A stretch of 54,143 bases of DNA from Acidimicrobiales bacterium (GTDB taxonomy: Bacteria; Actinomycetota; Acidimicrobiia; Acidimicrobiales; VFJN01), in the NCBI GenBank assembly GCA_035708905.1, contig DASTFE010000176.1, positions 1 through 54,143 on the forward strand. Reading direction: 5' to 3'. Shown in pieces: positions 1,256-10,767 of the stretch. The notes beneath the pieces are model-generated. The model saw only the letters and a program-made list of their open reading frames with translations. It made no database searches and was not told where the DNA came from. The stretch's first letter is position 1. Each line of letters opens with the position of its first letter. A program made the position numbers and the translations under genes.

Positions 1256-2287
1256 ATGAAGTACCGCACGCTCGGCCGCACCGGCCTCAAGGTCAGCCCG
1301 CTCTGCCTCGGCGCGATGATGTTCGGCGGCTGGGGCAACCGCGATCACGACGACTCGGTCAGGATCATCCACGCGGCCCTCGACGCCGGCATCAACTTCG
1401 TCGACACGGCCGACGTGTACTCGGCGGGCGAGTCCGAGGAGATCGTGGGCAAGGCGATCGCCGGGCGCCGCGACGACGTGGTGGTGGCCACCAAGTTCCA
1501 CGGCCCGATGGGCACCGACCCCAACCGGCAGGGCAACTCGCGGCGCTGGATCATGCGGGCGTGCGAGGACAGCCTCCGCCGACTCGGCACCGATCACATC
1601 GACCTGTACCAGGTCCACCGGCCCGAGCCGGGCACCGACATCGACGAGACGCTCGGTGCCCTGACCGACCTCGTGCGCCAGGGCAAGGTGCGGTACCTCG
1701 GCAGCTCGACGTTCCCCCCGTCGGCGGTGGTCGAGGCCCAGTGGGCCGCCGAGCGCCGCAACCTCGAGCGCTTCGTGTGCGAGCAGCCGCCGTACTCGAT
1801 GCTGGTGCGGGGCGTCGAGAGCGAGCTGCTACCCACCTGCGAACGCCACGGCATGGGGGTCATCGCCTGGAGCCCACTGGCGGGCGGGTGGCTGTCGGGC
1901 CGCTGGCGCAAGGGGGTCGACGGCCTGACGAGCCGACGGGCCGAGCGCATTCCGGACCGGTACGACCTGTCGAAGCCCGAGAACCAGGCCAAGCTCGACG
2001 CCACCGAGGAGCTGGCGGTGCTGGCCGAGCAGAACGACCTGAGCCTCATCCACCTGGCGCTGGCGTTCGTCATCAACCACCCCGCCGTTACCGCCGCCAT
2101 CATCGGGCCCCGCACGGGCGAGCACCTCGAATCGCAGCTGGACGCCGCGGACGTGGTGCTGAGCGACGACGTGCTCGACCGCATCGACGAGATCGTGCGC
2201 CCGGGCACGAACTTCAGCTGGGCGGACGCCGGCTACCTGCCGCCGGCCGTCGCCAGCTCCTGGCGGCGCCGCCGAGCCCGGCACTGA
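1256..2287 (+). CDS. Aldo/keto reductase family oxidoreductase.
   Basis: MKYRTLGRTGLKVSPLCLGAMMFGG...INFVDTADVYSAGESEEIVGKA...DLYQVHRPE...IGPRT. GGAGG RBS at 1243-1247. Confidence 0.9.
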   Translation: MKYRTLGRTGLKVSPLCLGAMMFGGWGNRDHDDSVRIIHAALDAGINFVDTADVYSAGESEEIVGKAIAGRRDDVVVATKFHGPMGTDPNRQGNSRRWIMRACEDSLRRLGTDHIDLYQVHRPEPGTDIDETLGALTDLVRQGKVRYLGSSTFPPSAVVEAQWAAERRNLERFVCEQPPYSMLVRGVESELLPTCERHGMGVIAWSPLAGGWLSGRWRKGVDGLTSRRAERIPDRYDLSKPENQAKLDATEELAVLAEQNDLSLIHLALAFVINHPAVTAAIIGPRTGEHLESQLDAADVVLSDDVLDRIDEIVRPGTNFSWADAGYLPPAVASSWRRRRARH

Positions 2288-2293
2288 TCCGGT

Positions 2294-2317
2294 AGTTTGA
2301 CAGCATGCTGTCAAACT
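2294..2317. promoter_or_regulatory. Perfect 24-bp AT-rich palindrome; putative operator, probably for the co-operonic MarR.
   Basis: AGTTTGACAGCATGCTGTCAAACT equals its own reverse complement. It is ~42% GC in a >70% GC context. Its central GCATGC contains the ATG (2305) of the next gene. Confidence 0.55.
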
Positions 2318-2811
2318 TCCTCGCGGCCTTCGGGGCCGACGGCCCGGCATCCGGCCTGGGCGACCGGCTCCACCTGTTCGGCCAGTTCGTCGGTTCGTGG
2401 GACCTGACCGTCACCGACATCGCGCCCGACGGCACCGAGACCACCCGGCCCGGAGAGTGGCACTTCGGATGGGCCCTCGCGGGCCGGGCCGTCGCCGACG
2501 TCTGGATCTGCCCCCGCCGCACGCGCGACGGCCGGTCGCCGGGCGAGCACGGCCTGAGCCTGCGGTTCTACGACGAGAGCCTGGGCGCATGGCGGTCGAC
2601 GTGGATGGGCCCGGGGCGGGGCATCGTCCGCCAGTTCGTCGCTCGACCGCAGGGCGACGGGATCGTGCTCGAGGGGCGCTTCGACGGCGTCGACACGCGG
2701 TGGTCGTTCGCGGACATCACCCCGAGCAGCTTCGCCTGGCGCAACGAGGAGTCGGTCGACGGCAAGCGCACCTGGCGGACGGTGCAACGGTTCGCGGCAC
2801 AGCGGGCGTGA
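2305..2811 (+). CDS. Conserved hypothetical small protein, tentatively a DUF1579/lipocalin-like beta-barrel.
   Basis: 168-aa ORF with good GC3 bias. W/G-rich pattern (GEWHFGWAL...VWICP...LRFYDESLGAWRSTW...FAWRNEESVDGKRTW). Its stop overlaps the MarR start (GTGA). Confidence 0.6.
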   Translation: MLSNFLAAFGADGPASGLGDRLHLFGQFVGSWDLTVTDIAPDGTETTRPGEWHFGWALAGRAVADVWICPRRTRDGRSPGEHGLSLRFYDESLGAWRSTWMGPGRGIVRQFVARPQGDGIVLEGRFDGVDTRWSFADITPSSFAWRNEESVDGKRTWRTVQRFAAQRA

Positions 2812-3287
2812 CCGGCGAACCGGCAGAGCCGGGCGACCCGACCTCCGCACGTGACGACCTGGCCGCGGCGTACCGGCTGCTGATCGCCGACGTCTACGAG
2901 TTGGCCGGCGCCTCCCGCCGGACCAGCGAAGCCATGGCGGCGACGGTGGGACAGACCGTGGCCCGGTGGCACGTGCTCAGCGTGATCTCCGACGGCCCCC
3001 GGTCGGTGGCCAGCGCCGCCCGCCGCCTCGGCCTGGCCCGCCAGAGCGTGCAGCGGGTGGCCGATCGGCTGGTGGCCGAGGGTCTGGTCGTGATCGAGCC
3101 CGATCCCGCCGACGCCCGGGCGCCCCGGCTGGCGTTGACCCGCCCTGGGCGCCGCGTGCTCGACGGCCTGGTCGAGCGGTCCGACGCTGCGCGGTCGGTC
3201 CAGCTGGCGGGCGCGGACGTCACGGTCGCCGACCTGCACGCCGCCCGGCGGGTCGTGCGCGAGTTGCGCCGGGTCCTCGACGGCTGA
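2808..3287 (+). CDS. MarR-family transcriptional regulator.
   Basis: GTG at 2808 overlaps TGA at 2809-2811 of the upstream gene. Winged-HTH segment: VARWHVLSVISDGPRSVASAARRLGLARQSVQRVADRLVAEGLVVIEPDPADARAPRLALTRPG. Confidence 0.85.
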   Translation: MTGEPAEPGDPTSARDDLAAAYRLLIADVYELAGASRRTSEAMAATVGQTVARWHVLSVISDGPRSVASAARRLGLARQSVQRVADRLVAEGLVVIEPDPADARAPRLALTRPGRRVLDGLVERSDAARSVQLAGADVTVADLHAARRVVRELRRVLDG

Positions 3288-3308
3288 GCAGGTCAGAGCC
3301 GCGGCGGA

Positions 3309-3324
3309 ATACCCATAGGGGTAT
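3309..3324. promoter_or_regulatory. CsoR/CstR-family type operator (TACCC-N4-GGGTA) upstream of the thioredoxin gene.
   Basis: ATACCCATAGGGGTAT has the same architecture as the two sites at 3753-3790 upstream of the CsoR-family gene. Confidence 0.5.
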
Positions 3325-3336
3325 ATCTGTAGCACC

Positions 3337-3735
3337 ATGTCGACCGCCGAGGATGGGAGGCGCCCAGTGGGCACCGTGAACCTGACCGAATCGACCTTCG
3401 AATCGACCGTGACCGGCAACGACATCGTCTTCGTGGACTGGTGGGCATCGTGGTGCGGGCCCTGCCGCGCCTTCGCCCCCGTGTTCGAGGCGGCGGCCGC
3501 CGCGAACGACGACATCGTGTTCGCCAAGGTGGACACCGAGGCCGAGCGGAACCTGGCGGGGAGCGCCGGGATCATGTCGATCCCCACCCTGATGATCTTC
3601 CGCGAGGGCGTCCTGGTGTTCTCGCAGCCCGGCGCCCTGCCGGCGGCTGCGCTCGACGACCTCATCTCGCAGGTGCGCGCCCTCGACATGGCAGAGGTGC
3701 ACAAGGCGGTGGCCGCGCAGGGTGCGGCCCGGTGA
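3337..3735 (+). CDS. trxA: Thioredoxin.
   Basis: WCGPC active site (FVDWWASWCGPCRAFAP) and the cis-Pro region SIPTLMIF. An alternative and perhaps better start is GTG at 3367, preceded by GGGAGG at 3355-3360. Confidence 0.9.
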   Translation: MSTAEDGRRPVGTVNLTESTFESTVTGNDIVFVDWWASWCGPCRAFAPVFEAAAAANDDIVFAKVDTEAERNLAGSAGIMSIPTLMIFREGVLVFSQPGALPAAALDDLISQVRALDMAEVHKAVAAQGAAR

Positions 3736-3752
3736 CCCAGCGTCAGTCGGCG

Positions 3753-3790
3753 GTACCCCCGGGGGTAGAAGTGGACACCCCCGGGGGTAC
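3753..3790. promoter_or_regulatory. Two tandem CsoR/CstR-type operators.
   Basis: GTACCCCCGGGGGTA (3753-3767; the palindromic core TACCCCCGGGGGTA is 3754-3767) and CACCCCCGGGGGTAC (3776-3790). They lie 37-74 nt upstream of the CsoR-family gene. Confidence 0.6.
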
Positions 3791-3826
3791 CCGCTAGGGT
3801 GAGTCGAGCCGACTGCCGGAGTGACG

Positions 3827-4096
3827 ATGGACCTGCCTGACGAGACGATCGCAGAACTGACCCGCCGACTACGCCGGGTCGAGGGCCAGGCCCGCGGCAT
3901 CCAGCAGATGCTGGCCGACGGTCGCGACTGCCGCGACGTGGTCACGCAGATCTCCGCCGCCACCCGGGCGCTCGAGCAGACCGGCTTCCTGCTGGTGGCG
4001 GCCGGGCTGCGGTGGTGCCTCGACAACCCCGAGCAGTCCGAGGCCGAGGGCCTCGGCGTCGACGAGGTCCAGAAGATGTTCCTCAAGCTGAGCTGA
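3827..4096 (+). CDS. CsoR/RcnR-family (DUF156) repressor with a CstR-like two-Cys fingerprint; candidate persulfide sensor.
   Basis: LTRRLRRVEGQARGIQQML...GRDCRDVVTQISAATRALE...LRWCLDNP. Cys37 and Cys66 (numbered from the GTG at 3821) are present, but Gly replaces the Cu-ligand His four residues before the second Cys. ATG at 3827 has GGAG 5 nt upstream; GTG at 3821 is an alternative start. Confidence 0.85.
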   Translation: MDLPDETIAELTRRLRRVEGQARGIQQMLADGRDCRDVVTQISAATRALEQTGFLLVAAGLRWCLDNPEQSEAEGLGVDEVQKMFLKLS

Positions 4097-4165
4097 CCCT
4101 TTCCCGTGCCGACAAAGTCCGGACAATCGGACCTTCACCACCCCCGACCCAGGAGTCCCAGACCG

Positions 4166-5548
4166 ATGAAGTTCGAGCAGTACTACCTCGAGTGCCTGTC
4201 CCACGCGTCGTATCTCGTGGGCGACGAGACCACCGGCGTCGCCGCGGTGATCGACCCCCGGCGTGACGTCGCCGAGTACATCGCCGACGCCGAGGCGGCA
4301 GGGTTGCGGATCGCGTACGTCATCGAGACGCACTTCCACGCCGACTTCCTGTCCGGCCACCTCGAGCTGGCCGAGGCCACGGGCGCGGAGATCGTGTTCG
4401 GCGCCGCGGCCGCACCGGAGTTCCCGGCCCGCCTCGTCGAGGACGGCGAGCGCATCTCGCTCGGCGACGTCGTCCTCGAGTTCCGGGCGACGCCCGGCCA
4501 CACCCCCGAGTCGACGTCCGTGGTCGTCTGGGAGCACGCCGACGACGCCGAGCCGTGGGGCGTGCTGACCGGCGACACGCTGTTCATCGGCGACGTCGGC
4601 CGGCCCGACCTGCTCGCCTCGATCGGCGTGACCGCCGACGAGCTGGGCTCGATGCTCTACGACTCGCTGCGGCACAAGCTGCTCACACTGCCCGACGCCA
4701 CCAAGGTCTGGCCGGCCCACGGCGCGGGCTCGGCCTGCGGCAAGAACCTGTCGACGGCCACCGTGTCGACGATCGGTGAGCAGCGCCGCGAGAACTACGC
4801 CCTGCAGCCCATGAGCCGTGACCGCTTCGTCGCCATGGTGACCGAGGGCCAGCCCGCCGCGCCCGACTACTTCGTGCACGACGCCATCCTCAACCGCAAG
4901 GCGCGGGGCCTGCTCGACGAGGCGGCCCCGCGGGCCATGACCTACGCAGAGGTCGAGGCGGCCCGGCAGGGCGGCGCCGTCGTCGTCGACGTGCGCGACG
5001 CCACCGCCTTCGCGGCCGGCCACCTCGCGGGCTCGGTCAACGTCGGGCTCGACGGGCGCTTCGCCGAGTACGCCGGCGAGGTCGCGGACCCGGGCGACGA
5101 GATCGTCGTGGCCGCGACCGACAGCGACATGGCCGCCGAGGCCAAGATCCGCCTCGGTCGCATCGGCTTCGACCGGGTGGTCGGCGCCCTCCACGACGTC
5201 GAGGGTGCGCTGGCCGCCCACCCCGAGGCCGCCCGTCGCTCGTCCCGGCTCACCGTCGCCGAGCTGGCCGACCGGATGGACGACACGCCCGGCCTCCAGG
5301 TCGTCGACGTCCGCAACCCCGGCGAGGCCGCGCTCGGCATGATCGACGGCGCGGTCAACATCCCGCTCGCGGCCCTGCGGCGGCAGGTGGGCGAGCTGGA
5401 CCTCGACCGCCCGATCGTCGTGCACTGCGCCGGCGGCTACCGCTCGTCCATCGGGGCGAGCTGGCTGCGCTCGGTCGGCGCCGCCGACGTGTCCGACCTG
5501 CTGGGCGGCTACAGCGCCTGGTCGGACCGGACGCCCGCCGCCCTCTGA
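4166..5548 (+). CDS. Persulfide dioxygenase (MBL fold) fused to two rhodanese domains; CstB-like.
   Basis: ETHFHADFLSG metal motif and TPGHTPES. The C-terminal rhodanese domains end in the active-site loop VVHCAGGYRSS. ATG at 4166 with AGGAG at 4151-4155. Confidence 0.9.
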   Translation: MKFEQYYLECLSHASYLVGDETTGVAAVIDPRRDVAEYIADAEAAGLRIAYVIETHFHADFLSGHLELAEATGAEIVFGAAAAPEFPARLVEDGERISLGDVVLEFRATPGHTPESTSVVVWEHADDAEPWGVLTGDTLFIGDVGRPDLLASIGVTADELGSMLYDSLRHKLLTLPDATKVWPAHGAGSACGKNLSTATVSTIGEQRRENYALQPMSRDRFVAMVTEGQPAAPDYFVHDAILNRKARGLLDEAAPRAMTYAEVEAARQGGAVVVDVRDATAFAAGHLAGSVNVGLDGRFAEYAGEVADPGDEIVVAATDSDMAAEAKIRLGRIGFDRVVGALHDVEGALAAHPEAARRSSRLTVAELADRMDDTPGLQVVDVRNPGEAALGMIDGAVNIPLAALRRQVGELDLDRPIVVHCAGGYRSSIGASWLRSVGAADVSDLLGGYSAWSDRTPAAL

Positions 5549-5676
5549 CCCACCCGCGGGCTCGGGCCGTCACCGCCGCGGCGACCCGGGCCCGCTCCGT
5601 ACATCCGGACGCGGCGTTCCGCGGGCCGCTCGTCCGCACCCGAACAGAACCATCGACATCCCACGAGGAGACACCA

Positions 5677-6258
5677 GTGACCACTCTCGACCGCCGCATC
5701 GACGCCGTCACCCTCGAGCGCCTGCTCGCCGAGGACGCCGACGTCCGGGTCCTCGACGTCCGCACGCCCGCCGAGTTCGAGTCCGCCCACATCCCCGGCG
5801 CCTACAACGTCCCGCTCGACACCCTCGGCGAGCACGCCGCCGAGCTCGAGCGGCACCTGAGCGAGCCGGTCATGCTCGTGTGCAAGTCGGGCACCCGGGC
5901 CAACCAGGCCTGCGAGAAGCTGGCCGCCACCGGCATGGCCAACCTGCACGTCCTCGACGGCGGCATGCAGTCGTGGGACGACGGCCGCCGCCCGGTGCGC
6001 CGGGGCCGCCAGCGCTGGGACCTGGAGCGCCAGGTGCGCCTCGTCGCCGGCAGCCTGGTGCTCGCGGGCATCGCCGGCAGCGTGTTCGTGCCCGGCCTGA
6101 AGTACGTCTCGGGGTTCGTCGGCGCCGGGCTGGCGTTCGCCGCCGTGACCAACACCTGCGCGATGGGCATGGCCCTGTCGAAGCTGCCCTACAACCGCGA
6201 CGCCGGCTGCGACGTCGAGGGCGTGGTGCGCGAGCTGACGGCCGCCAGCCGGAGCTGA
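5677..6258 (+). CDS. Rhodanese-domain sulfurtransferase fused to a DUF2892/YgaP-like membrane domain.
   Basis: LDVRTPAEFESAHIPGA...VMLVCKSGTRANQA (Cys-X4-Arg loop). The hydrophobic C-terminal half contains FAAVTNTCAMGMAL. GTG at 5677 with GAGGAG at 5665-5670. Confidence 0.85.
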   Translation: MTTLDRRIDAVTLERLLAEDADVRVLDVRTPAEFESAHIPGAYNVPLDTLGEHAAELERHLSEPVMLVCKSGTRANQACEKLAATGMANLHVLDGGMQSWDDGRRPVRRGRQRWDLERQVRLVAGSLVLAGIAGSVFVPGLKYVSGFVGAGLAFAAVTNTCAMGMALSKLPYNRDAGCDVEGVVRELTAASRS

Positions 6259-6259
6259 C

Positions 6260-8083
6260 GTGGCCGTGGCGACCGAACGACCGGGCGACGGGGCCCAGCC
6301 GGCAGCCGCCGGCGCGCGTCCCGCGTCGCCGGGCAGGCCGGCACGGCCGGGCCGGTCCGGCCGCGCCGGCCGTCTCGCACGGTTCATCCCGGCGCTGGGG
6401 TGGGCGCGCGGGTATCCGCGCCAACGGCTGCGGGGCGACGTGACCGCCGGCCTCACGGTGGCGGTGATGCTGATCCCGCAGGGCATGGCGTACGCCAGCC
6501 TCGCGGGCATGCCGCCCGTCACGGGTCTGTACGCCAGCATCGTCGGCATCGTGGCCTACGCCCTGCTGGGCACGAGCGGCTCGCTCGCGGTGGGCCCGGT
6601 CGCCATCACGTCACTGCTCACCGTCGAGGGGCTCGCCCGTGTCACCACACCGGGCGACCCCGCCTACCCGGCCATCGCCGCGCTGCTGGCCATGATGGTC
6701 GGCGGGCTGCTGCTCGTCCTCGGGCTGGCACGCCTGGGCGTGCTGGTCAATCTGCTGTCGCATCCCGTCATCAGCGGGTTCACCTCGGCCGCCGCCATCG
6801 TCATCGCCCTCAGCCAGGTCAAGGACCTGCTGGGCGTCGACATCGGCCGGCCCGACGGGGTCGTCGACACGGTCCGGGCCCTGGCGGAGAGCGTCGGCGA
6901 CACCAGCGCGGTCACGTTGGCGGTCGGCGCGCTCGCCGTCGCGGCGCTGGTCGCCGGGCGCCGGTACGCCCCCCGCTGGCCGACCGCCCTGGTGGTGGTC
7001 GTGGCCGGCATCCTGGCCACCTGGGGCCTGTCGCTGCACGAGCGGGGCATCGCCGTGCTGCGCGACGTGCCGTCCGGCCTGCCGACGCCGGCCCTGCCGG
7101 AGATGTCGACCGGCCTGCTCGGCGATCTCGCCCCTGTGGCCCTCACCATCGCCATCGTCGCCTTCGCCGAGGGGATCAGCGTGGCCAAGGCCATCGCCCG
7201 CAAGACCCGCGACGACGTCGACGCCAACCAGGAGCTGATCGCCACCGGCGCGGCCAACGCCGCCGCCGGCGCCTTCTCGGGCTTCCCGATCGCCGGCGGG
7301 TTCTCGCGCACTGCCGTCAACTTCCAGGCCGGCGCCCGCACCCCCCTGGCCAGCCTCGTCACCGCCGGGGTGCTGGCGGTCGCCGCGCTCTGGCTGACAC
7401 CGCTGTTCTACTACCTGCCCAAGGTCGTGCTGGCGGCCATCGTCGTGGTCGCCGTGCTGGGCCTGGTCGACGTCCGCGACGCGGTCGAGACGTTCCGCCT
7501 GCGACGCAGCGACGGCGCCACCCTCGCGGTCACTTTCCTGGCCACCTTGCTGATCGGGGTCGAGCCCGGTCTGGCCATCGGCGTCGTGTTCAGCCTGGCG
7601 GTGTTCATCTGGCGCAGCTCGAACCCCCACGCCACCGAGCTCGGCCGGGTGGTGGGCAGCAGCGAGTACCGCAACGTCGACCGGTGGCCGACCCGCACCG
7701 CCGACGACGTGGCCCTGCTGCGGGTGGACGGCCCGCTGTTCTTCGCCAACACCAAGCGCCTCGAGGACCGGGTCCAGGCCACCGTCGCCGACCGGCCGGA
7801 GGTGCGGGCCGTGATCCTCGACGCCTCGTCCACCACCGACATCGACGCCAGCGGCGCCCACGCCCTGCACGAGCTGTCGGCCGACCTCGACGCCGCCGGC
7901 ATCGCCCTGCACCTGGCGGTCGTGCGCGGGCCGGTCCGCGACGTGCTGGGCCGGGGCGGGTACTGGCGAGCGCTCGACGACCGCGTCCACCCGTCGGTCG
8001 CCGACGCCTGCGAAGCCGTGGCCCCGGGCAGCGTGCTGAGCCGCATCGCCGACGACGAGCCGAGGGACGTCCATGTCGTCTGA
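6260..8083 (+). CDS. SulP-family anion permease with a C-terminal STAS domain.
   Basis: GDVTAGLTVAVMLIPQGMAYASLAGMPPVTGLYAS... with multiple TM segments. STAS tail: LLRVDGPLFFANTKRLEDRV...VILDASSTTDIDASG. It starts 1 nt after the preceding stop. Confidence 0.9.
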   Translation: MAVATERPGDGAQPAAAGARPASPGRPARPGRSGRAGRLARFIPALGWARGYPRQRLRGDVTAGLTVAVMLIPQGMAYASLAGMPPVTGLYASIVGIVAYALLGTSGSLAVGPVAITSLLTVEGLARVTTPGDPAYPAIAALLAMMVGGLLLVLGLARLGVLVNLLSHPVISGFTSAAAIVIALSQVKDLLGVDIGRPDGVVDTVRALAESVGDTSAVTLAVGALAVAALVAGRRYAPRWPTALVVVVAGILATWGLSLHERGIAVLRDVPSGLPTPALPEMSTGLLGDLAPVALTIAIVAFAEGISVAKAIARKTRDDVDANQELIATGAANAAAGAFSGFPIAGGFSRTAVNFQAGARTPLASLVTAGVLAVAALWLTPLFYYLPKVVLAAIVVVAVLGLVDVRDAVETFRLRRSDGATLAVTFLATLLIGVEPGLAIGVVFSLAVFIWRSSNPHATELGRVVGSSEYRNVDRWPTRTADDVALLRVDGPLFFANTKRLEDRVQATVADRPEVRAVILDASSTTDIDASGAHALHELSADLDAAGIALHLAVVRGPVRDVLGRGGYWRALDDRVHPSVADACEAVAPGSVLSRIADDEPRDVHVV

Positions 8084-8555
8084 CGCGCCGACCTTCGCCG
8101 CTGCGGTCACCTGCATCGACGGGCGGGTGCACCCGCCCCTCACCGAGTGGGTGCGCGACCGCTTCGGGGTCGACCACGTCGACCTGCTCACCCAGCCCGG
8201 CCCCGACCTGGCGCTGTGCTGCGGCGACGACGCCGCCGTCGCGCACCTGCGCGACCACCTCGGCGTGTCCACGCGCGCCCACCGGCCCGGCGCGCTCGTC
8301 GTGGCCGGGCACGCCGACTGCGCCGCCAACCCGGTGTCCGAGGCAGAGCACCGCCGCCACCTGCACCTGGCACTGGCGCGGGCGCGGGCGTGGGTGCCGG
8401 AGGGCCTGCCGGTCGTCGGCGTGTGGGTCGACCACGACGGTCGCGTGGCCGAGATCGACCCCGGCACGCTCCCGGCCTACGAGGCGAGCACGTCGTCGCC
8501 CGGCGCCGGCCGGGTGGCGCCGCCGGCTCCGGACCACGTGGCCACGAACGCGTAG
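8073..8555 (+). CDS. Small beta-carbonic-anhydrase-like protein (CxDxR...HxxC).
   Basis: TCIDGRVH and VAGHADCAAN supply the Cys/Asp/Arg and His/Cys zinc-site signature. The ATG overlaps the SulP 3' end by 11 nt. At ~160 aa it is shorter than typical beta-CAs. Confidence 0.5.
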   Translation: MSSDAPTFAAAVTCIDGRVHPPLTEWVRDRFGVDHVDLLTQPGPDLALCCGDDAAVAHLRDHLGVSTRAHRPGALVVAGHADCAANPVSEAEHRRHLHLALARARAWVPEGLPVVGVWVDHDGRVAEIDPGTLPAYEASTSSPGAGRVAPPAPDHVATNA

Positions 8556-9223
8556 CGGTCGCCCCGCACGGTCGTCTCGCGCCACTCGACCGGCTCGTCG
8601 GCGGTGTAGCTGAGCCGTTCCATGACGAACACCGCCTGGTCGGGGCCGACGCCGAGCAGCGTCCGAGCCCGGCCGTCGGGCACCGCGGCCCGCACCCGCT
8701 CGCGCCCGCTCGTCGGCCGCACCCCGCACCGGTCGGCCAGCTCGTCGTAGAGCGCCGTGTGGGTGAAGTCCGCGTCGAGGAGCGGCCGGGCGAGGGTGGC
8801 CGGCAGCCACACGGTGTCGTGGGCCAGTGGCTCGTCGTCGGCGAGGCGCAGGCGCTCGAGGCGGATCAGGGGCGTGCGCGCCGGCCGCCGGAGCCGCTCG
8901 CTCACCGTGCCGTCGGTGACCTCGGAGAGGTCGAGCACCCGGCTGCGCTGCTCGTAGCCGAGCGACTCGACCGAGCGGAACAGGCTGTAGGCCACGCCGA
9001 CGCCCCACGAGCGCTCGATGGCGGGCGCGGTCACGAAGGTGCCCCGGCCCCGCTCGCGGCTGACCAGGCCCTCGTCCTGCAGCCGGCGGACCGCCTCGCG
9101 CGCGGTGTGCCGCGAGACCCCGTACTCGTCCATCAGCACGGCGTCGGTCGGGAAGCCCGCCGCGAACTCGCCGCTGCCGAGGCGGCCCCGCAGGTCGTCG
9201 AGGAGCTGGGCCCACAGCGGCAT
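8477..9223 (-). CDS. GntR-family (HutC/UTRA-type) transcriptional regulator.
   Basis: ORF 8477..10342(-) is trimmed to the ATG at 9223. MPLWAQLLDDLRGRLGSGEF..FPTDAVLMDEYGVSRHTAREAVRRLQDEGLVSRERGRGTFV, followed by a UTRA-like C-terminal domain. Confidence 0.85.
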   Translation of the reverse strand: MPLWAQLLDDLRGRLGSGEFAAGFPTDAVLMDEYGVSRHTAREAVRRLQDEGLVSRERGRGTFVTAPAIERSWGVGVAYSLFRSVESLGYEQRSRVLDLSEVTDGTVSERLRRPARTPLIRLERLRLADDEPLAHDTVWLPATLARPLLDADFTHTALYDELADRCGVRPTSGRERVRAAVPDGRARTLLGVGPDQAVFVMERLSYTADEPVEWRETTVRGDRYAFVATWSGAGGATRPAPGDDVLAS

Positions 9224-9273
9224 GGGGCTCGACCGGTCTATGCCACGCACAAGCCCCAATGTACGGACATCGG

Positions 9274-10767
9274 CTACGGCGGCGGGAAGATCCCCTGGCC
9301 CGGGGTCAGCACCCCGTCGGGGTCGAACCGGCGCTTGGCCCGCGCGAACGCGTCCCAGCGGCCGCCGAAGTGGTGCCGCCAGTCGGCTGCCGTCATGTCG
9401 GGCACGGCGCCGATGACGTAGCGCGTGCCCCCGCTGGCGACGGCCTCGTCGTAGAAGGCGCGGTTCTGCGCCAGCAGCCCGGTGATGTCGGGGTAGCCGG
9501 GGAACGGGAAGCGCAGCAGGTTGAGCTGGAAGGCCACCGGCTCGTCGGGCACGGCGAACAGGGGCCGGGTGATCGTGGTGGTGTCGACCGGGTACAGGCT
9601 CACGGGCCCGACCCCCATCTGGTCGGGCGTGAGCTGCGCCAGCAGCGACTCGACGACCCCGGCCGTGGCCGAGCCCGGCAGGAACAACGAGAGCCACGGC
9701 TTGGGCTGATCCCAGAAGCCGCCGGCCACGAGCTGGGCCACGAGCGGGTCGAGCCGGAAGGCCCAGTCGAGGTAGGGCTGGTCGACGACGACCGCCGCGG
9801 CGCGGTCGTCGAACAGGCCGGCCAGCAGCGCGTCCCGGTCGGGCTCGGCGGGCGGCGTGTAGTAGGTGGCGACCTCCATCATGAAGCGCCAGCCCCTCCC
9901 GTCCTGGCGGGGCTCGAGGTGCCCCTCCTGGTAGCTGAACCGGCCGTCCTGCATGACCGTGACCTGGTCGGCGAGGTAGGTCGCCAGGTCGTCGTAGACC
10001 AGGTTGAACACGAGCGCGTGCGTCTCGGCGGGGACCAGGCGCACCTTGGCCCGCACGATGAGCCCGCACTGACCGGCCCCGGCCAGCACGGCGTCGAACA
10101 GGTCGGGACGGCGGGCCCGTGAGCACGTGACGAGCTGCCCCCGGCCGGTGACCACCTGCAGCTCGACGACGTTGTCGGCCTGGGTACCGGCCCGCTGCAT
10201 CGTGCCCCCGGTGCCGCCCACGCTGAGCGTGCCGCCGACGGACAGGTGCAGGAAGTCGGTGAGCACCGGCGGGGTGCGGCCGTCCGCGGCCGCGGCGCCG
10301 ACGAGCTCGGCCCAGGTGACGCCCGCGTCGACGTCGGCCCACGTCTCACCGATGTGGTGGATCGTGGCCAGCGACCGGGCGTCGACCGCGATGCCGCCCG
10401 GCGCCGTGGCCTGGCCGTAGTTGGAGTGCGACTCGCGCACGTCCGGCGGGCCGCCCTGGCCGTTCACCGCGATGGCGAGGTCGTTGCGGCGGGCGTAGCC
10501 CACCATCTTCACCACGTCCCTGACCGACCCCGGCCGCAGCACCGCCCACGGCGACGCCGAGACCAGCCGACCGAAGTCGCCGGCGAAGGCGGCCAGCGTG
10601 TCGGGGTCCGTCGCCAGCACACCGTCGAGGCGCGGCACCGGGCGGGTGCCCGGCCGGCCGGCCTCGGCCGCCGTCACCCACCCGCCGCGCAGCGGGTTCC
10701 ACCCCACCACCGCGGCGCCCGCCGCCAACCCCTGGAGCACCTTCCGGCGCGACAGCTCCGTCCGCAT
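9274..10767 (-). CDS. Tat-exported FAD-linked oxidase of the cytokinin oxidase/dehydrogenase (CKX)-like family.
   Basis: Twin-arginine signal MRTELSRRKVLQGLAAGAAVVG. PCMH-type FAD domain. CKX-like motifs PKPWLSLFLPGS and a C-terminal FDPDGVLTPGQGIF. Confidence 0.8.
   Translation of the reverse strand: MRTELSRRKVLQGLAAGAAVVGWNPLRGGWVTAAEAGRPGTRPVPRLDGVLATDPDTLAAFAGDFGRLVSASPWAVLRPGSVRDVVKMVGYARRNDLAIAVNGQGGPPDVRESHSNYGQATAPGGIAVDARSLATIHHIGETWADVDAGVTWAELVGAAAADGRTPPVLTDFLHLSVGGTLSVGGTGGTMQRAGTQADNVVELQVVTGRGQLVTCSRARRPDLFDAVLAGAGQCGLIVRAKVRLVPAETHALVFNLVYDDLATYLADQVTVMQDGRFSYQEGHLEPRQDGRGWRFMMEVATYYTPPAEPDRDALLAGLFDDRAAAVVVDQPYLDWAFRLDPLVAQLVAGGFWDQPKPWLSLFLPGSATAGVVESLLAQLTPDQMGVGPVSLYPVDTTTITRPLFAVPDEPVAFQLNLLRFPFPGYPDITGLLAQNRAFYDEAVASGGTRYVIGAVPDMTAADWRHHFGGRWDAFARAKRRFDPDGVLTPGQGIFPPP

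What the first reader, a model, noticed from the sequence alone, without database searches (positions are those of the whole stretch)
3300..8555. CstR-like persulfide-sensing cluster extended by thioredoxin, a SulP permease and a beta-CA-like protein
Seen in the sequence:
- The DUF156 repressor (3827-4096) keeps the two Cys residues (RDC...RWC) but has Gly where Cu(I)-sensing CsoR has its His ligand. This x-C-x-C fingerprint is associated with the persulfide sensor CstR rather than with CsoR (x-C-H-C) or RcnR (H-C-H-H).
- It is followed by a persulfide dioxygenase fused to two rhodanese domains (HFHADF; active loop CAGGYRS), a rhodanese-DUF2892 membrane protein (CKSGTRA) and a SulP/STAS permease that starts 1 nt after the preceding stop.
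- Last is a small CxDxR/HxxC protein overlapping the permease by 11 nt.

Established knowledge: the S. aureus cst operon pairs CstR with CstA, CstB, SQR and a TauE exporter.

Inference: this is an actinobacterial variant. In it a SulP transporter may export sulfite or thiosulfate, a carbonic-anhydrase-like protein takes part, and a thioredoxin sits behind the same operator type. No SQR gene is present in the window.
Basis: partly seen in the sequence, partly recalled or inferred. Interest (0 to 1): 0.6.

Follow-up and report, generated by a model that had tools for sequence, protein, structure and literature searches.

The report
CstR-type persulfide operon with SulP transporter
An uncultured Acidimicrobiales actinobacterium carries a sulfur-stress gene cluster of a known kind (persulfide-sensing repressor plus persulfide dioxygenase) that uses a SulP transporter where relatives have the TauE exporter, and adds a thioredoxin and an unstudied carbonic-anhydrase-like protein.

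Summary

- **Repressor.** The CsoR-family repressor (3827-4096) has both sensing Cys. It has Gly where Cu(I)-CsoR has His, as do all 21 orthologues examined. The same genome also holds a true C-H-C CsoR.
- **Operators.** TACCC-N4-GGGTA palindromes lie before trx and, in tandem, before the repressor gene. The two exact copies are the only ones in the 4.6 Mb assembly. The motif is conserved at the same places in relatives.
- **Downstream genes.** These are a CstB-type persulfide dioxygenase-rhodanese fusion, a membrane rhodanese, a SULTR-like SulP permease and a PF20393 protein with a beta-carbonic-anhydrase zinc site and fold.
- **Gene order elsewhere.** The five-gene order recurs in several Acidimicrobiia genomes and metagenomes. 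A same-genus relative has TauE where this window has rhodanese-SulP.
- **SulP clade.** Across about eight phyla this SulP clade sits next to persulfide dioxygenases (37 of 80 loci within 1.5 kb).
- **Carbonic-anhydrase-like protein.** Its subfamily occurs only in such clusters, once without SulP. Its function is open.
- **SQR.** A homologue exists on another contig.

Transport direction, the inducer and all enzyme activities are inferred, not shown. This is a new variant of a known kind (S. aureus CstR, S. coelicolor ScCsoR), of moderate interest.

The parts
3310..3323 (.). CstR-type operator before trx (TACCCATAGGGGTA; full palindrome ATACCC-N4-GGGTAT), 13 nt upstream of the trx ATG
   Evidence: one of only two exact matches in the genome. 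The same motif lies directly upstream of trx homologues in L042, L046, L052 and L088.
3337..3735 (+). Thioredoxin (WCGPC), a predicted regulon member and likely persulfide/polysulfide reductant
   Evidence: PF00085 E 5e-24. TIGR01068 scores 99.4 bits against a cut-off of 96.8. Linked to CstR-like genes in L046, L047, L051, L052, L088 and L174.
3754..3801 (.). Tandem operators before the repressor gene: TACCCCCGGGGGTA (3754-3767), CACCCCCGGGGGTA (3776-3789, 22 bp centre to centre) and a weaker overlapping TACCCGCTAGGGTG (3788-3801)
   Evidence: Tandem sites 21-24 bp apart recur upstream of CstR-like or PDO genes in L039, L041, L045, L046, L047, L048, L050, L055, L088, L094, L095 and L174.
3827..4096 (+). 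CstR-type (x-C-x-C) CsoR/RcnR-family repressor. Cys37 and Cys66 in the numbering from the GTG at 3821.
   Evidence: PF02583 E 1.8e-21. Aligned to 4M1P, 7MQ1 and 4ADZ. In a 21-orthologue alignment both Cys are invariant and Gly stands at the CsoR His position.
4166..5548 (+). CstB-type persulfide dioxygenase fused to a Cys-less rhodanese domain and a catalytic rhodanese (HCAGGYRS)
   Evidence: PDB 3TP9 E 1.7e-84, 3R2U E 4e-58 over the full length, BpPRF 5VE3 E 5e-28. Motifs ETHFHADF, TPGHTPES, GDxxFxGDVGRPD and HGAGSACGK are conserved.
5556..5595 (+). GC-rich stem-loop just after the PDO stop codon, without a U-tract. Possibly an attenuator or an mRNA-stability element inside the operon.
   Evidence: Present in L088 and L056. 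L089 has a different sequence that folds to an equally strong stem (z -4.85). Weak or absent in L037 and L094.
5677..6258 (+). Membrane-anchored rhodanese (CKSGTRA) with a YgaP-like two-helix TM domain
   Evidence: PF00581 E 2.9e-18 and PF11127 E 6.5e-9. Conserved directly upstream of SulP in L037, L056, L088, L089, L093-L095, L174 and L176.
6260..8083 (+). SulP/SLC26 permease with STAS domain, SULTR-like. Predicted transporter of sulfite, thiosulfate or sulfate.
   Evidence: PF00916 E 2e-107 and TIGR00815 at 465 bits. Closest solved structure is AtSULTR4;1 7LHV, E 7e-103, against BicA 6e-25. Equivalents of Q112, Y116, A153, E347, F391, S392 and R393 are conserved. Linked to PDO in 37 of 80 loci within 1.5 kb.
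8073..8555 (+). Minimal beta-carbonic-anhydrase-like protein (PF20393 Pro_CA_2), translationally coupled to SulP by an 11-nt overlap. Function unknown.
   Evidence: PF20393 E 1.3e-33. C14, D16, G17, R18, H80 and C83 are invariant in 24 sequences. AlphaFold2 pLDDT 88.7. The top 20 Foldseek PDB hits are all beta-CAs, TM about 0.5. Every context examined for subfamily members at 50% identity or more is a cst-like cluster.

Best explanation
This is a reactive-sulfur (persulfide/polysulfide) homeostasis regulon of the CstR type in an Acidimicrobiales bacterium.

**Proposed mechanism (inferred unless marked as shown).**
1. The reduced repressor binds the TACCC-N4-GGGTA palindromes before trx and before cstR. 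It holds both promoters off.
2. Sulfane sulfur modifies its two Cys by persulfidation or a di-/tri-/tetrasulfide bridge. The repressor then leaves the DNA.
3. Thioredoxin reduces protein and small-molecule persulfides.
4. The CstB-like enzyme oxidises low-molecular-weight persulfides to sulfite. Through its C-terminal rhodanese it forms thiosulfate.
5. The membrane-anchored rhodanese handles sulfane sulfur or thiosulfate at the membrane next to the transporter.
6. The SULTR-like SulP permease carries the sulfur oxyanion product across the membrane, most likely outwards. It takes the place that TauE holds in S. aureus, S. coelicolor and a same-genus relative.
7. The small beta-CA-like zinc protein, made in step with SulP, is a lineage-specific accessory whose chemistry is unknown. 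It may interconvert CO2/HCO3-/H+ next to an H+-coupled transporter, or it may act on a sulfur analogue.

**Shown here.** Gene content, ligand fingerprint, operator conservation, conservation of the module, and the SulP-PDO linkage.

**Inferred.** The inducer, the enzyme activities, the direction and substrate of transport, and co-transcription beyond the PDO gene.
For: **Repressor**
- PF02583.
- It aligns to CsoR structures with Gly at the His ligand and Asp at the CsoR Tyr position. E. faecalis CstR also has Asp at that position (RDC in both) but has Asn at the His position.
- Both Cys are invariant, and the residue is Gly in all 21 orthologues.
- A separate C-H-C CsoR is encoded on contig C417.

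**Operators**
- 4 hits against 0.35 expected.
- The exact motif occurs in the genome only here.
- It is conserved upstream of CstR-like genes in most of the 20 relatives' loci, often in tandem, and upstream of trx.
- It lies directly upstream of PDO-Rhd-SulP(-CA) in L094 and L095, where no cstR gene intervenes.
- The motif resembles the published ScCsoR site ATACCn6GGTAT (PMC7533328).

**PDO**
- Full-length match to 3R2U and 3TP9, and to the characterised BpPRF.

**Module conservation**
- L088 is fully syntenic.
- L089, L174, L176, L056 and L037 have the same core in other flanks.

**TauE replacement**
- The same-genus locus L039 reads SQR-like/DsrC/DsrE | CstR-PDO-TauE.

**SulP**
- SULTR-like, with the sulfate-site residues and the proton Glu conserved.
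- The MBL/PDO domain is found in 44 of the 80 closest SulP loci from many phyla, and within 600 nt in 28.
- Other recurrent neighbours are YeeE/YedE, rhodanese, type II SQR and varied regulators.
- Published precedent: a pdo-sqrB-sulP cluster in Methylophaga (PMC6548844).
Against:
- A strong stem-loop follows the PDO stop, and no operator lies in the 128-nt gap before the rhodanese gene. CstR control of rhd-sulP-CA therefore rests on read-through and on gene order.
- AtSULTR4;1 is a 2H+/sulfate symporter (PMC8298490). With the proton Glu conserved, the proton-motive force would favour uptake rather than export.
- YeeE/YedE proteins in the same neighbourhoods include thiosulfate importers (from my own knowledge, not tested here).
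- ScCsoR and S. aureus CstR differ in their sensing chemistry, so the exact modification cannot be predicted.
- SQR is not linked and carries no operator. The source of the persulfide is therefore open.
Confidence: 0.72

Rival explanations
1. The transporter works inwards. SulP imports thiosulfate (or sulfate) with protons. The membrane rhodanese splits thiosulfate into sulfite and a persulfide. The CstB-like enzyme then clears that persulfide. On this reading the cluster is a thiosulfate-utilisation module switched on by its own sulfane-sulfur intermediate.
For: - The SulP keeps the sulfate site and the proton-coupling Glu of the 2H+/sulfate symporter AtSULTR4;1.
- A rhodanese is fused to a membrane anchor and translationally coupled to the transporter.
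- YeeE/YedE-family genes recur in the SulP-clade neighbourhoods (24 of 80 loci).
Against: - Control by a persulfide-released repressor fits removal of sulfur better than uptake.
- TauE, annotated as a sulfite exporter, occupies the same position in a same-genus relative and in the characterised S. coelicolor circuit.
- No assimilatory sulfite-reductase or cysteine-synthase genes lie in the cluster.
Confidence: 0.15
2. SulP plus the carbonic-anhydrase-like protein is an independent bicarbonate (or other non-sulfur anion) transport unit that merely lies next to the cst-like genes. It would resemble the SulP-carbonic anhydrase fusions described by Felce and Saier (recalled from memory).
For: - The partner has the beta-CA zinc site and fold.
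- A hairpin separates PDO from the downstream genes, and no operator lies in that gap.
- The CA-like gene is absent from some otherwise identical clusters (L037, L093, L095).
Against: - This SulP clade is tied to PDO genes in many phyla that lack any CA-like gene.
- It is far closer to SULTR4;1 than to BicA (E 7e-103 against 6e-25).
- SulP starts 1 nt after the rhodanese stop, and this coupling is conserved.
- The CA-like subfamily also occurs in a cst-like cluster without SulP (L178).
Confidence: 0.06
3. The repressor is an ordinary copper sensor (CsoR), or it senses another electrophile such as an aldehyde (FrmR-type), and the sulfur genes are coincidental neighbours.
For: NCBIfam's best, sub-threshold hit is RicR (50.5 bits against a cut-off of 175), with weak hits to FrmR and RcnR. 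The operator shape is shared with CsoR and RicR.
Against: - The His ligand is Gly in all 21 orthologues.
- The N-terminus has neither His nor Pro2 (MDLPDE...), so it lacks the RcnR and FrmR determinants.
- A true CsoR is encoded elsewhere in the genome.
- Neighbours in relatives are PDO, rhodanese, TauE, DsrE/DsrC and SQR-like genes, with no copper ATPase.
Confidence: 0.03

Closest known systems
Streptomyces coelicolor ScCsoR circuit (SCO0618-0621: ScPDO, TauE, ScCsoR, rhodanese; Lu et al. 2020, PMC7533328)
   Same: - It is actinobacterial.
- The CsoR-family repressor has two Cys at positions numbered the same (Cys37, Cys66).
- The palindromic operator is ATACC-N6-GGTAT, with two sites at the PDO promoter.
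- It has a type III PDO-rhodanese fusion and a separate rhodanese gene.
- The circuit contains no SQR.
   Different: - The transporter here is SulP/STAS, not TauE.
- The rhodanese is membrane-anchored (YgaP-like).
- A thioredoxin carries its own operator.
- A PF20393 beta-CA-like gene is appended.
- All genes are co-directional, with cstR first.
- The host belongs to class Acidimicrobiia, not Streptomyces.
Staphylococcus aureus cst operon (cstR / tauE-cstA-cstB-sqr) and Enterococcus faecalis CstR (PDB 7MQ1)
   Same: - The fingerprint is x-C-x-C, with no His ligand.
- The CstB domain order is the same: PDO, then a Cys-less rhodanese, then a catalytic rhodanese. It aligns full-length to 3R2U.
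- The repressor gene is adjacent to the sulfur-oxidation genes.
   Different: - There is no CstA (rhodanese-TusA-type multidomain protein), no TauE and no SQR in the cluster.
- SQR is unlinked, on contig C119.
- Identity to EfCstR is modest (E 7e-11).
SULTR/SLC26 sulfate transporters (AtSULTR4;1, PDB 7LHV) and the pdo-sqrB-sulP clusters of Methylophaga thiooxydans (PMC6548844)
   Same: - The protein has SLC26 core and STAS domains.
- The sulfate-coordinating residues and the proton Glu are conserved.
- SulP lies next to PDO, as in Methylophaga and in many phyla surveyed here.
   Different: - Neither the substrate nor the direction has been measured for any PDO-linked bacterial SulP.
- Here the gene is translationally coupled to a membrane rhodanese upstream and to a CA-like gene downstream.
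Beta-class carbonic anhydrases (Cab-type, e.g. M. thermoautotrophicum 1G5C, M. tuberculosis Rv1284 1YLK) and SulP-CA fusion proteins
   Same: - The CxDxR...HxxC zinc-site motif is present.
- The fold is alpha/beta, and every top Foldseek hit is a beta-CA.
- It is physically associated with a SulP gene.
   Different: - Only about 125 residues are structured.
- Pfam PF00484 gives no hit; only PF20393 does.
- TM-scores are only about 0.5.
- The subfamily has an extra conserved Cys (C49/C50).
- It occurs only in persulfide clusters, once without SulP.
- No member of PF20393 has been studied.

Membership tests
CstR-type persulfide sensors (CsoR/RcnR family, x-C-x-C) | CsoR/RcnR (DUF156, PF02583) fold | tested here: met
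   PF02583 E 1.8e-21, 76.8 bits against a cut-off of 22.8.
CstR-type persulfide sensors (CsoR/RcnR family, x-C-x-C) | Two conserved Cys at the X and Z positions; no His at Y and no His or Cys at the N-terminal W position | tested here: met
   Cys in RDC and RWC. Gly stands 4 residues before the second Cys, where CsoR 4M1P, 4ADZ and the genome's own CsoR have His. This holds in 21 of 21 orthologues.
CstR-type persulfide sensors (CsoR/RcnR family, x-C-x-C) | Genomic association with persulfide and sulfur-transfer genes, and autoregulation through a GC-tract palindrome | tested here: met
   PDO lies next to the CstR-like gene in about half of the 20 relatives' loci. The operator is conserved upstream of the gene in most of them.
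CstR-type persulfide sensors (CsoR/RcnR family, x-C-x-C) | DNA release on persulfide or polysulfide treatment, and not on Cu(I) | not testable with these tools
   Needs EMSA or fluorescence anisotropy with purified protein.
CstB / type III persulfide dioxygenase-rhodanese fusions | MBL-fold PDO domain with the metal-site motifs, followed by a Cys-less rhodanese and a catalytic rhodanese with an active-site Cys | tested here: met
   Full-length alignment to 3R2U (E 4e-58) and 3TP9 (E 1.7e-84). Motifs ETHFHADF, TPGHTPES, GDVGRPD, HGAGSACGK and HCAGGYRS are present. The middle domain has no Cys.
CstB / type III persulfide dioxygenase-rhodanese fusions | Persulfide dioxygenase and thiosulfate-forming activity | not testable with these tools
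   Enzyme assay required.
S. aureus-type cst operon | TauE exporter, CstA multidomain sulfurtransferase and SQR in the same operon | tested here: not met
   The window has none of the three. SulP and a YgaP-type rhodanese stand in their place. The SQR homologue is on contig C119 with no operator.
SulP/SLC26 family, SULTR-like sulfate transporters | Sulfate_transp core plus C-terminal STAS; conserved anion-site residues and proton-coupling Glu of AtSULTR4;1 | tested here: met
   PF00916 and PF01740. TIGR00815 scores 465 bits against a cut-off of 380. Equivalents of Q112, Y116, A153, E347, F391, S392 and R393 are identical in the 7LHV alignment.
SulP/SLC26 family, SULTR-like sulfate transporters | Measured substrate and direction of transport | not testable with these tools
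   Proteoliposome or whole-cell flux assays are needed.
Beta-class carbonic anhydrase | Zinc ligands Cys-His-Cys with the Asp-Arg dyad (CxDxR ... HxxC) | tested here: met
   C14, D16, R18, H80 and C83 are invariant in 24 sequences.
Beta-class carbonic anhydrase | Beta-CA fold | tested here: inconclusive
   The 20 best Foldseek PDB hits are all beta-CAs at probability 1.00. However, TM is only 0.4-0.53 and rmsd 4.5-8 A.
Beta-class carbonic anhydrase | Membership of the canonical sequence family (Pfam PF00484) | tested here: not met
   Only PF20393 is hit at E <= 0.01. There is no significant sequence match to any solved CA.
Beta-class carbonic anhydrase | CO2 hydration activity | not testable with these tools
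   Stopped-flow assay required. COS and CS2 should be tried as alternative substrates.

The most novel reading that the evidence does not exclude
The PF20393 subfamily found here may not be a CO2-hydrating helper of the transporter. It may instead be a dedicated zinc enzyme of reactive-sulfur metabolism, for example a COS/CS2-type hydrolase or an enzyme acting on another sulfur analogue of CO2/HCO3-, recruited into CstR regulons of Acidimicrobiia.

The evidence does not exclude this:
- Every context examined for members at 50% identity or more is a cst-like cluster carrying the CstR-type operator.
- One such cluster (L178) has the gene between a membrane rhodanese and the PDO, with no SulP.
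- The subfamily has an extra conserved Cys (C49/C50) that the distant PF20393 members lack.
Probability: 0.2. Interest if true: 0.65.

Novelty: new variant of a known kind. Interest (0 to 1): 0.42.

Why it matters
- **Range of the system.** CstR-type sulfane-sulfur circuits are characterised in Firmicutes and in Streptomyces. This locus extends them to Acidimicrobiia, which are abundant but mostly uncultured soil, freshwater and marine actinobacteria.
- **Three testable additions.**
  1. A thioredoxin that sits directly behind the CstR-type operator. This would link the oxidative (PDO) and reductive (Trx) routes of persulfide removal under one sensor.
  2. A SULTR-like SulP clade that partners persulfide dioxygenases across many phyla. 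It is a candidate for the sulfite/thiosulfate transporter that has never been shown biochemically.
  3. An unstudied beta-CA-like family (PF20393) whose sulfur-linked subfamily now has a clear physiological context in which to assay it.
- **Significance.** None of this overturns current understanding. It supplies good candidates for missing parts of bacterial reactive-sulfur handling.

Tried and rejected
- **The search for related loci, single CA-like protein.** No confirmed relatives in genome contigs. I used the genome search, the search for homologous proteins and the look-up of encoding contigs instead.
- **The genome search, SulP protein at phylum level.** It failed twice with a machine error. 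I replaced it with the search for related loci.
- **Promoter and terminator consensus scan of 3200-9400.** No sigma-70-like promoter was found. The one terminator-like site lies inside sulP and is at chance level.
- **Literature.** Nothing on PF20393/Pro_CA_2. No paper describes trx as a CstR target. The first 'SulP' searches mostly matched 'sulphur' or 'sulphide'.
- **Genome-wide operator scan with one mismatch.**
  - 39 hits against 101 for the reversed control, so the other hits are noise.
  - None lies near the SQR or CsoR genes.
  - A tandem imperfect pair on C387 before isocitrate dehydrogenase was judged to be chance.
- **GntR/HutC gene as part of the module.** Considered and rejected. 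It is syntenic only in close relatives (L088; in L093 it lies 4.6 kb away) and is absent from L089, L174 and L176.
- **MarR, the 168-aa protein and the aldo-keto reductase upstream.** Considered and rejected as parts. They are syntenic only in L088.

Full report
**1. What is in the sequence**

Window 3300-8555 lies in 72-76% G+C DNA. It holds six co-directional genes on the + strand (ORFs; Pfam; NCBIfam).

| Gene | Coordinates | Main evidence |
|---|---|---|
| Thioredoxin | 3337-3735 | WCGPC; TIGR01068 above its cut-off |
| CsoR/RcnR-family repressor | 3827-4096 | PF02583, E 1.8e-21 |
| MBL-fold protein with two rhodanese domains | 4166-5548 | see section 4 |
| Rhodanese fused to a YgaP-like two-helix membrane domain | 5677-6258 | PF00581, PF11127 |
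| SulP permease with STAS domain | 6260-8083 | PF00916, E 2e-107 |
| PF20393 'Pro_CA_2' protein, 160 aa | 8073-8555 | E 1.3e-33 |

- Reading the DNA confirms a 1-nt gap between the rhodanese stop (TGA, 6256-6258) and the SulP GTG (6260).
- It also confirms the 11-nt overlap of the SulP 3' end with the ATG of the last gene.
- Refinement: only the C-terminal rhodanese of the fusion protein has a catalytic Cys (HCAGGYRS). The middle domain has none.

**2. The repressor is of the CstR type, not a copper sensor**

- phmmer alignments to solved CsoR structures (Geobacillus 4M1P, S. lividans 4ADZ) align the two Cys of the window protein with the two Cu(I)-ligand Cys.
- The His ligand, four residues before the second Cys, is Gly here. 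E. faecalis CstR (7MQ1) has Asn there.
- I aligned 21 orthologues from relatives with these references. Both Cys are invariant and the position is Gly in all of them.
- The residue before the first Cys is Asp or Glu, as in EfCstR (RDC). CsoR has Tyr there.
- The N-terminus (MDLPDE...) has neither the His of RcnR nor the Pro2 of FrmR.
- The same genome encodes a second PF02583 protein on contig C417 with the full C...HxxxC set, that is, a true CsoR.

**3. Operators**

*In this window and genome*
- The palindrome TACCC-N4-GGGTA occurs at 3310-3323, 13 nt before the trx ATG.
- It occurs again at 3754-3767. One-mismatch copies lie at 3776-3789 and 3788-3801, before the repressor gene.
- That is four matches against 0.35 expected.
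- The exact pattern occurs nowhere else in the 4.59 Mb assembly.
- With one mismatch allowed the genome gives 39 hits against 101 for a reversed control. None of them is near the SQR or CsoR genes.

*In relatives (phylogenetic footprinting)*
- In about 18 of 20 loci holding a CstR-like gene, the motif lies directly upstream of that gene. It is often a tandem pair 21-24 bp apart.
- It also lies directly upstream of thioredoxin homologues in L042, L046, L052 and L088.
- In a Microthrixaceae MAG (L094) and an Ilumatobacter MAG (L095), tandem sites lie directly before PDO-rhodanese-SulP(-CA) with no repressor gene in between.
- The motif is close to the experimentally defined ScCsoR site ATACCn6GGTAT (PMC7533328).

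**4. The enzymes**

- The fusion protein aligns over its full length to 3TP9 (E 1.7e-84) and 3R2U (E 4e-58). I take 3R2U, from memory, to be S. aureus CstB.
- Its MBL domain aligns to the characterised PDO-rhodanese fusion BpPRF (5VE3) and to human ETHE1 (4CHL).
- The motifs ETHFHADF, TPGHTPES, GDxxFxGDVGRPD and HGAGSACGK are conserved.
- It therefore has the CstB architecture (type III PDO).
- The next gene is a YgaP-like membrane rhodanese, not CstA.

**5. The transporter**

*Similarity and binding site*
- The closest solved structure is the 2H+/sulfate symporter AtSULTR4;1 (7LHV, E 7e-103).
- The bicarbonate transporter BicA (6e-25) and the fumarate transporter SLC26Dg (1e-20) are far more distant.
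- In the alignment, the residues that coordinate sulfate in AtSULTR4;1 (Q112, Y116, A153, F391, S392, R393) and the proton-coupling Glu347 are all identical in the window protein (residue roles from PMC8298490).

*First line of context evidence*
- In a same-genus genome (G012, locus L039) the arrangement is SQR-like/DsrC-like/DsrE-like | CstR-PDO-TauE, with operators at both promoters.
- TauE thus stands where this window has rhodanese-SulP-CA.

*Second line of context evidence*
- I examined the 80 closest SulP relatives among species-representative genomes.
- They come from Acidimicrobiia, Rubrobacteria, Chloroflexota, Bacteroidota, Rhodothermales, Gemmatimonadota, Myxococcota, Calditrichia and Bacillaceae.
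- Of these, 44 loci contain a PDO MBL domain. It lies within 1.5 kb in 37 and within 600 nt in 28, of which 25 are on the same strand.
- Many of the remaining loci are contigs too short to show neighbours.

*Other recurrent neighbours*

| Neighbour | Loci |
|---|---|
| YeeE/YedE | 24 |
| Single-domain rhodanese | 18 |
| Crp-type regulator | 15 |
| Type II SQR (E 1e-124 to human SQOR) | 12 |
| Mo-oxidoreductase | 11 |
| ArsR-type regulator | 9 |

- A published instance is the pdo-sqrB-sulP cluster of Methylophaga (PMC6548844).
- Earlier notes of this scan report the same adjacency under other regulators. I treat those as leads only; my own survey is the test.
- The SulP clade is therefore a general partner of persulfide dioxygenases.
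- Direction is not settled. Regulation by a persulfide-released repressor and the replacement of TauE argue for export. SULTR-like proton symport argues that uptake is possible.

**6. The carbonic-anhydrase-like protein**

*Sequence and fold*
- PF20393 is uncharacterised; no paper mentions it.
- In a 24-sequence alignment C14, D16, G17, R18, H80 and C83 are invariant. This is the beta-CA zinc site with its Asp-Arg dyad.
- An AlphaFold2 model (pLDDT 88.7, with a disordered tail after residue 130) finds only beta-CAs among its 20 best PDB matches.
- These include Cab 1G5C and Rv1284 1YLK, at probability 1.00 but TM of only about 0.5.
- It does not hit PF00484 or any solved CA by sequence.

*Distribution*
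- The family is rare: 2 of 61 relatives' genomes and 15 of 401 genomes across the phylum.
- Distant members (43% identity or less) lie in unrelated contexts.
- Every context I examined for members at 50% identity or more is a cst-like cluster:

| Locus | Arrangement |
|---|---|
| L088 (NCBI Acidimicrobiales MAG) | fully syntenic with the window |
| L089, L174, L176/L177, L056 | PDO-rhodanese-SulP-CA; 11-nt overlap in the loci with called genes |
| L094 | SulP-CA |
| L179 | SulP-CA-[operator]-rhodanese-PDO |
| L178 | membrane rhodanese-CA-[operator]-PDO-DUF302, no SulP |
| L081 | frameshifted SulP-CA |

- Otherwise identical clusters lack the gene (L037, L093, L095).
- It is therefore a lineage-specific accessory tied to the persulfide module, not strictly to SulP.
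- The subfamily carries an extra Cys or Cys pair (C49, C50) that distant members lack.
- Its chemistry is open. It may interconvert CO2/HCO3-/H+ beside a proton-coupled anion transporter, or it may act on a sulfur analogue such as COS or CS2.

**7. What is missing or uncertain**

- SQR is absent from the window. A 402-aa homologue lies on contig C119, matching Aquifex SQR 3HYV at E 2e-69 over the full length. Both SQR segments visible in that alignment (GAGCFGAAYEY, PAVCVLD) keep their Cys. It has no operator.
- The assembly is 89% complete.
- A strong GC-rich stem-loop (5556-5595) follows the PDO stop codon. It recurs in L088 and L056.
- L089 has a different sequence that folds equally well. 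The stem is weak or absent in L037 and L094.
- With no operator in the 128-nt gap, control of the last three genes by the repressor depends on read-through. The stem may tune their level.

**8. Comparison with what is known, and verdict**

- The system works like the S. aureus CstR and S. coelicolor ScCsoR circuits. It passes the sequence-level membership tests for a CstR-type repressor and a CstB-type enzyme.
- It is not an S. aureus-type cst operon in composition: it has no TauE, no CstA and no linked SQR.
- The new elements are:
  - the thioredoxin under its own operator;
  - SulP with a membrane rhodanese in place of TauE;
  - the PF20393 protein.
- I file it as a new variant of a known kind, of moderate interest (0.42).
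- The most novel reading still open is that the PF20393 subfamily is a sulfur-specific zinc enzyme (probability about 0.2).

Noticed in passing
window 5556-5595: A GC-rich hairpin (about 15 pairs, no U-tract) lies immediately after the PDO stop codon, inside the presumed operon. L088 and L056 share it. L089 has a different sequence that folds just as well (z -4.85). It may be an attenuator or an RNA-stability element that sets the ratio of enzyme to transporter.
   Followed up: partly
window 8217-8222 (Cys49-Cys50 of the 8073-8555 protein): The sulfur-cluster subfamily of PF20393 has a conserved Cys-Cys pair (LALCC), or a single Cys (VCA) in the L178/L179-type members. Distant family members have none. 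This could be a redox or sulfur-carrying site.
   Followed up: partly
window 8477-9223 (minus strand): A GntR/HutC-type regulator gene (GntR + UTRA in the L088 orthologue) converges on the CA-like gene and overlaps its 3' end by 79 nt. It is syntenic in L088. In L093 it lies 4.6 kb from SulP. It is absent from the other module-bearing loci, so it is probably not part of the module. An earlier scan note proposed a GntR/HutC regulator for a SulP-type cluster in another Acidimicrobiales genome.
   Followed up: partly
window 1256-3287: An aldo-keto reductase, a 168-aa protein with no family hit and a MarR-family regulator lie directly upstream of trx. They are syntenic in L088 only. MarR proteins have been reported to sense sulfane sulfur (PMC11211675), but no link was tested here.
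   Followed up: no
L039 (G012:C70) 3313-8173: A same-genus relative has a fuller cst-like locus: SQR-like flavoprotein, DsrC-like and DsrE-like genes behind one operator, then CstR-PDO-TauE behind a tandem pair. It is useful as the reference 'TauE version' of this module.
   Followed up: yes
G000 contig C119 (L173:1189-2397, minus): An SQR homologue (402 aa) lies next to a class-V aminotransferase/cysteine-desulfurase-like gene and an ECF-type sigma factor gene. It is unlinked to the cst-like cluster and has no CstR-type operator.
   Followed up: partly
G000 contig C417 (L001:987-1268): A canonical CsoR (YC...HLHHC) paralogue. No TACCC-N4-GGGTA site lies nearby, so the two paralogues probably use distinct operators.
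   Followed up: partly
L081 (G248:C109) 1450-2945: SulP and the CA-like gene are both split over frames in this genome. They are either decaying copies of the pair or the result of assembly errors.
   Followed up: no
L091/L092 (metagenome contigs): A distant PF20393 member (43% identity) sits between two CxxCxxCC (PF03692) genes. An ArsP_1 permease and an AA_permease-PTS_EIIA_2 fusion flank them. This is another transporter-rich but non-sulfur context for the family.
   Followed up: no
G000 contig C387 5043-5081: Two one-mismatch operator-like sites 25 bp apart lie between a secreted-protein gene and isocitrate dehydrogenase. Judged to be chance, given 39 such hits genome-wide against 101 for the control.
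   Followed up: partly
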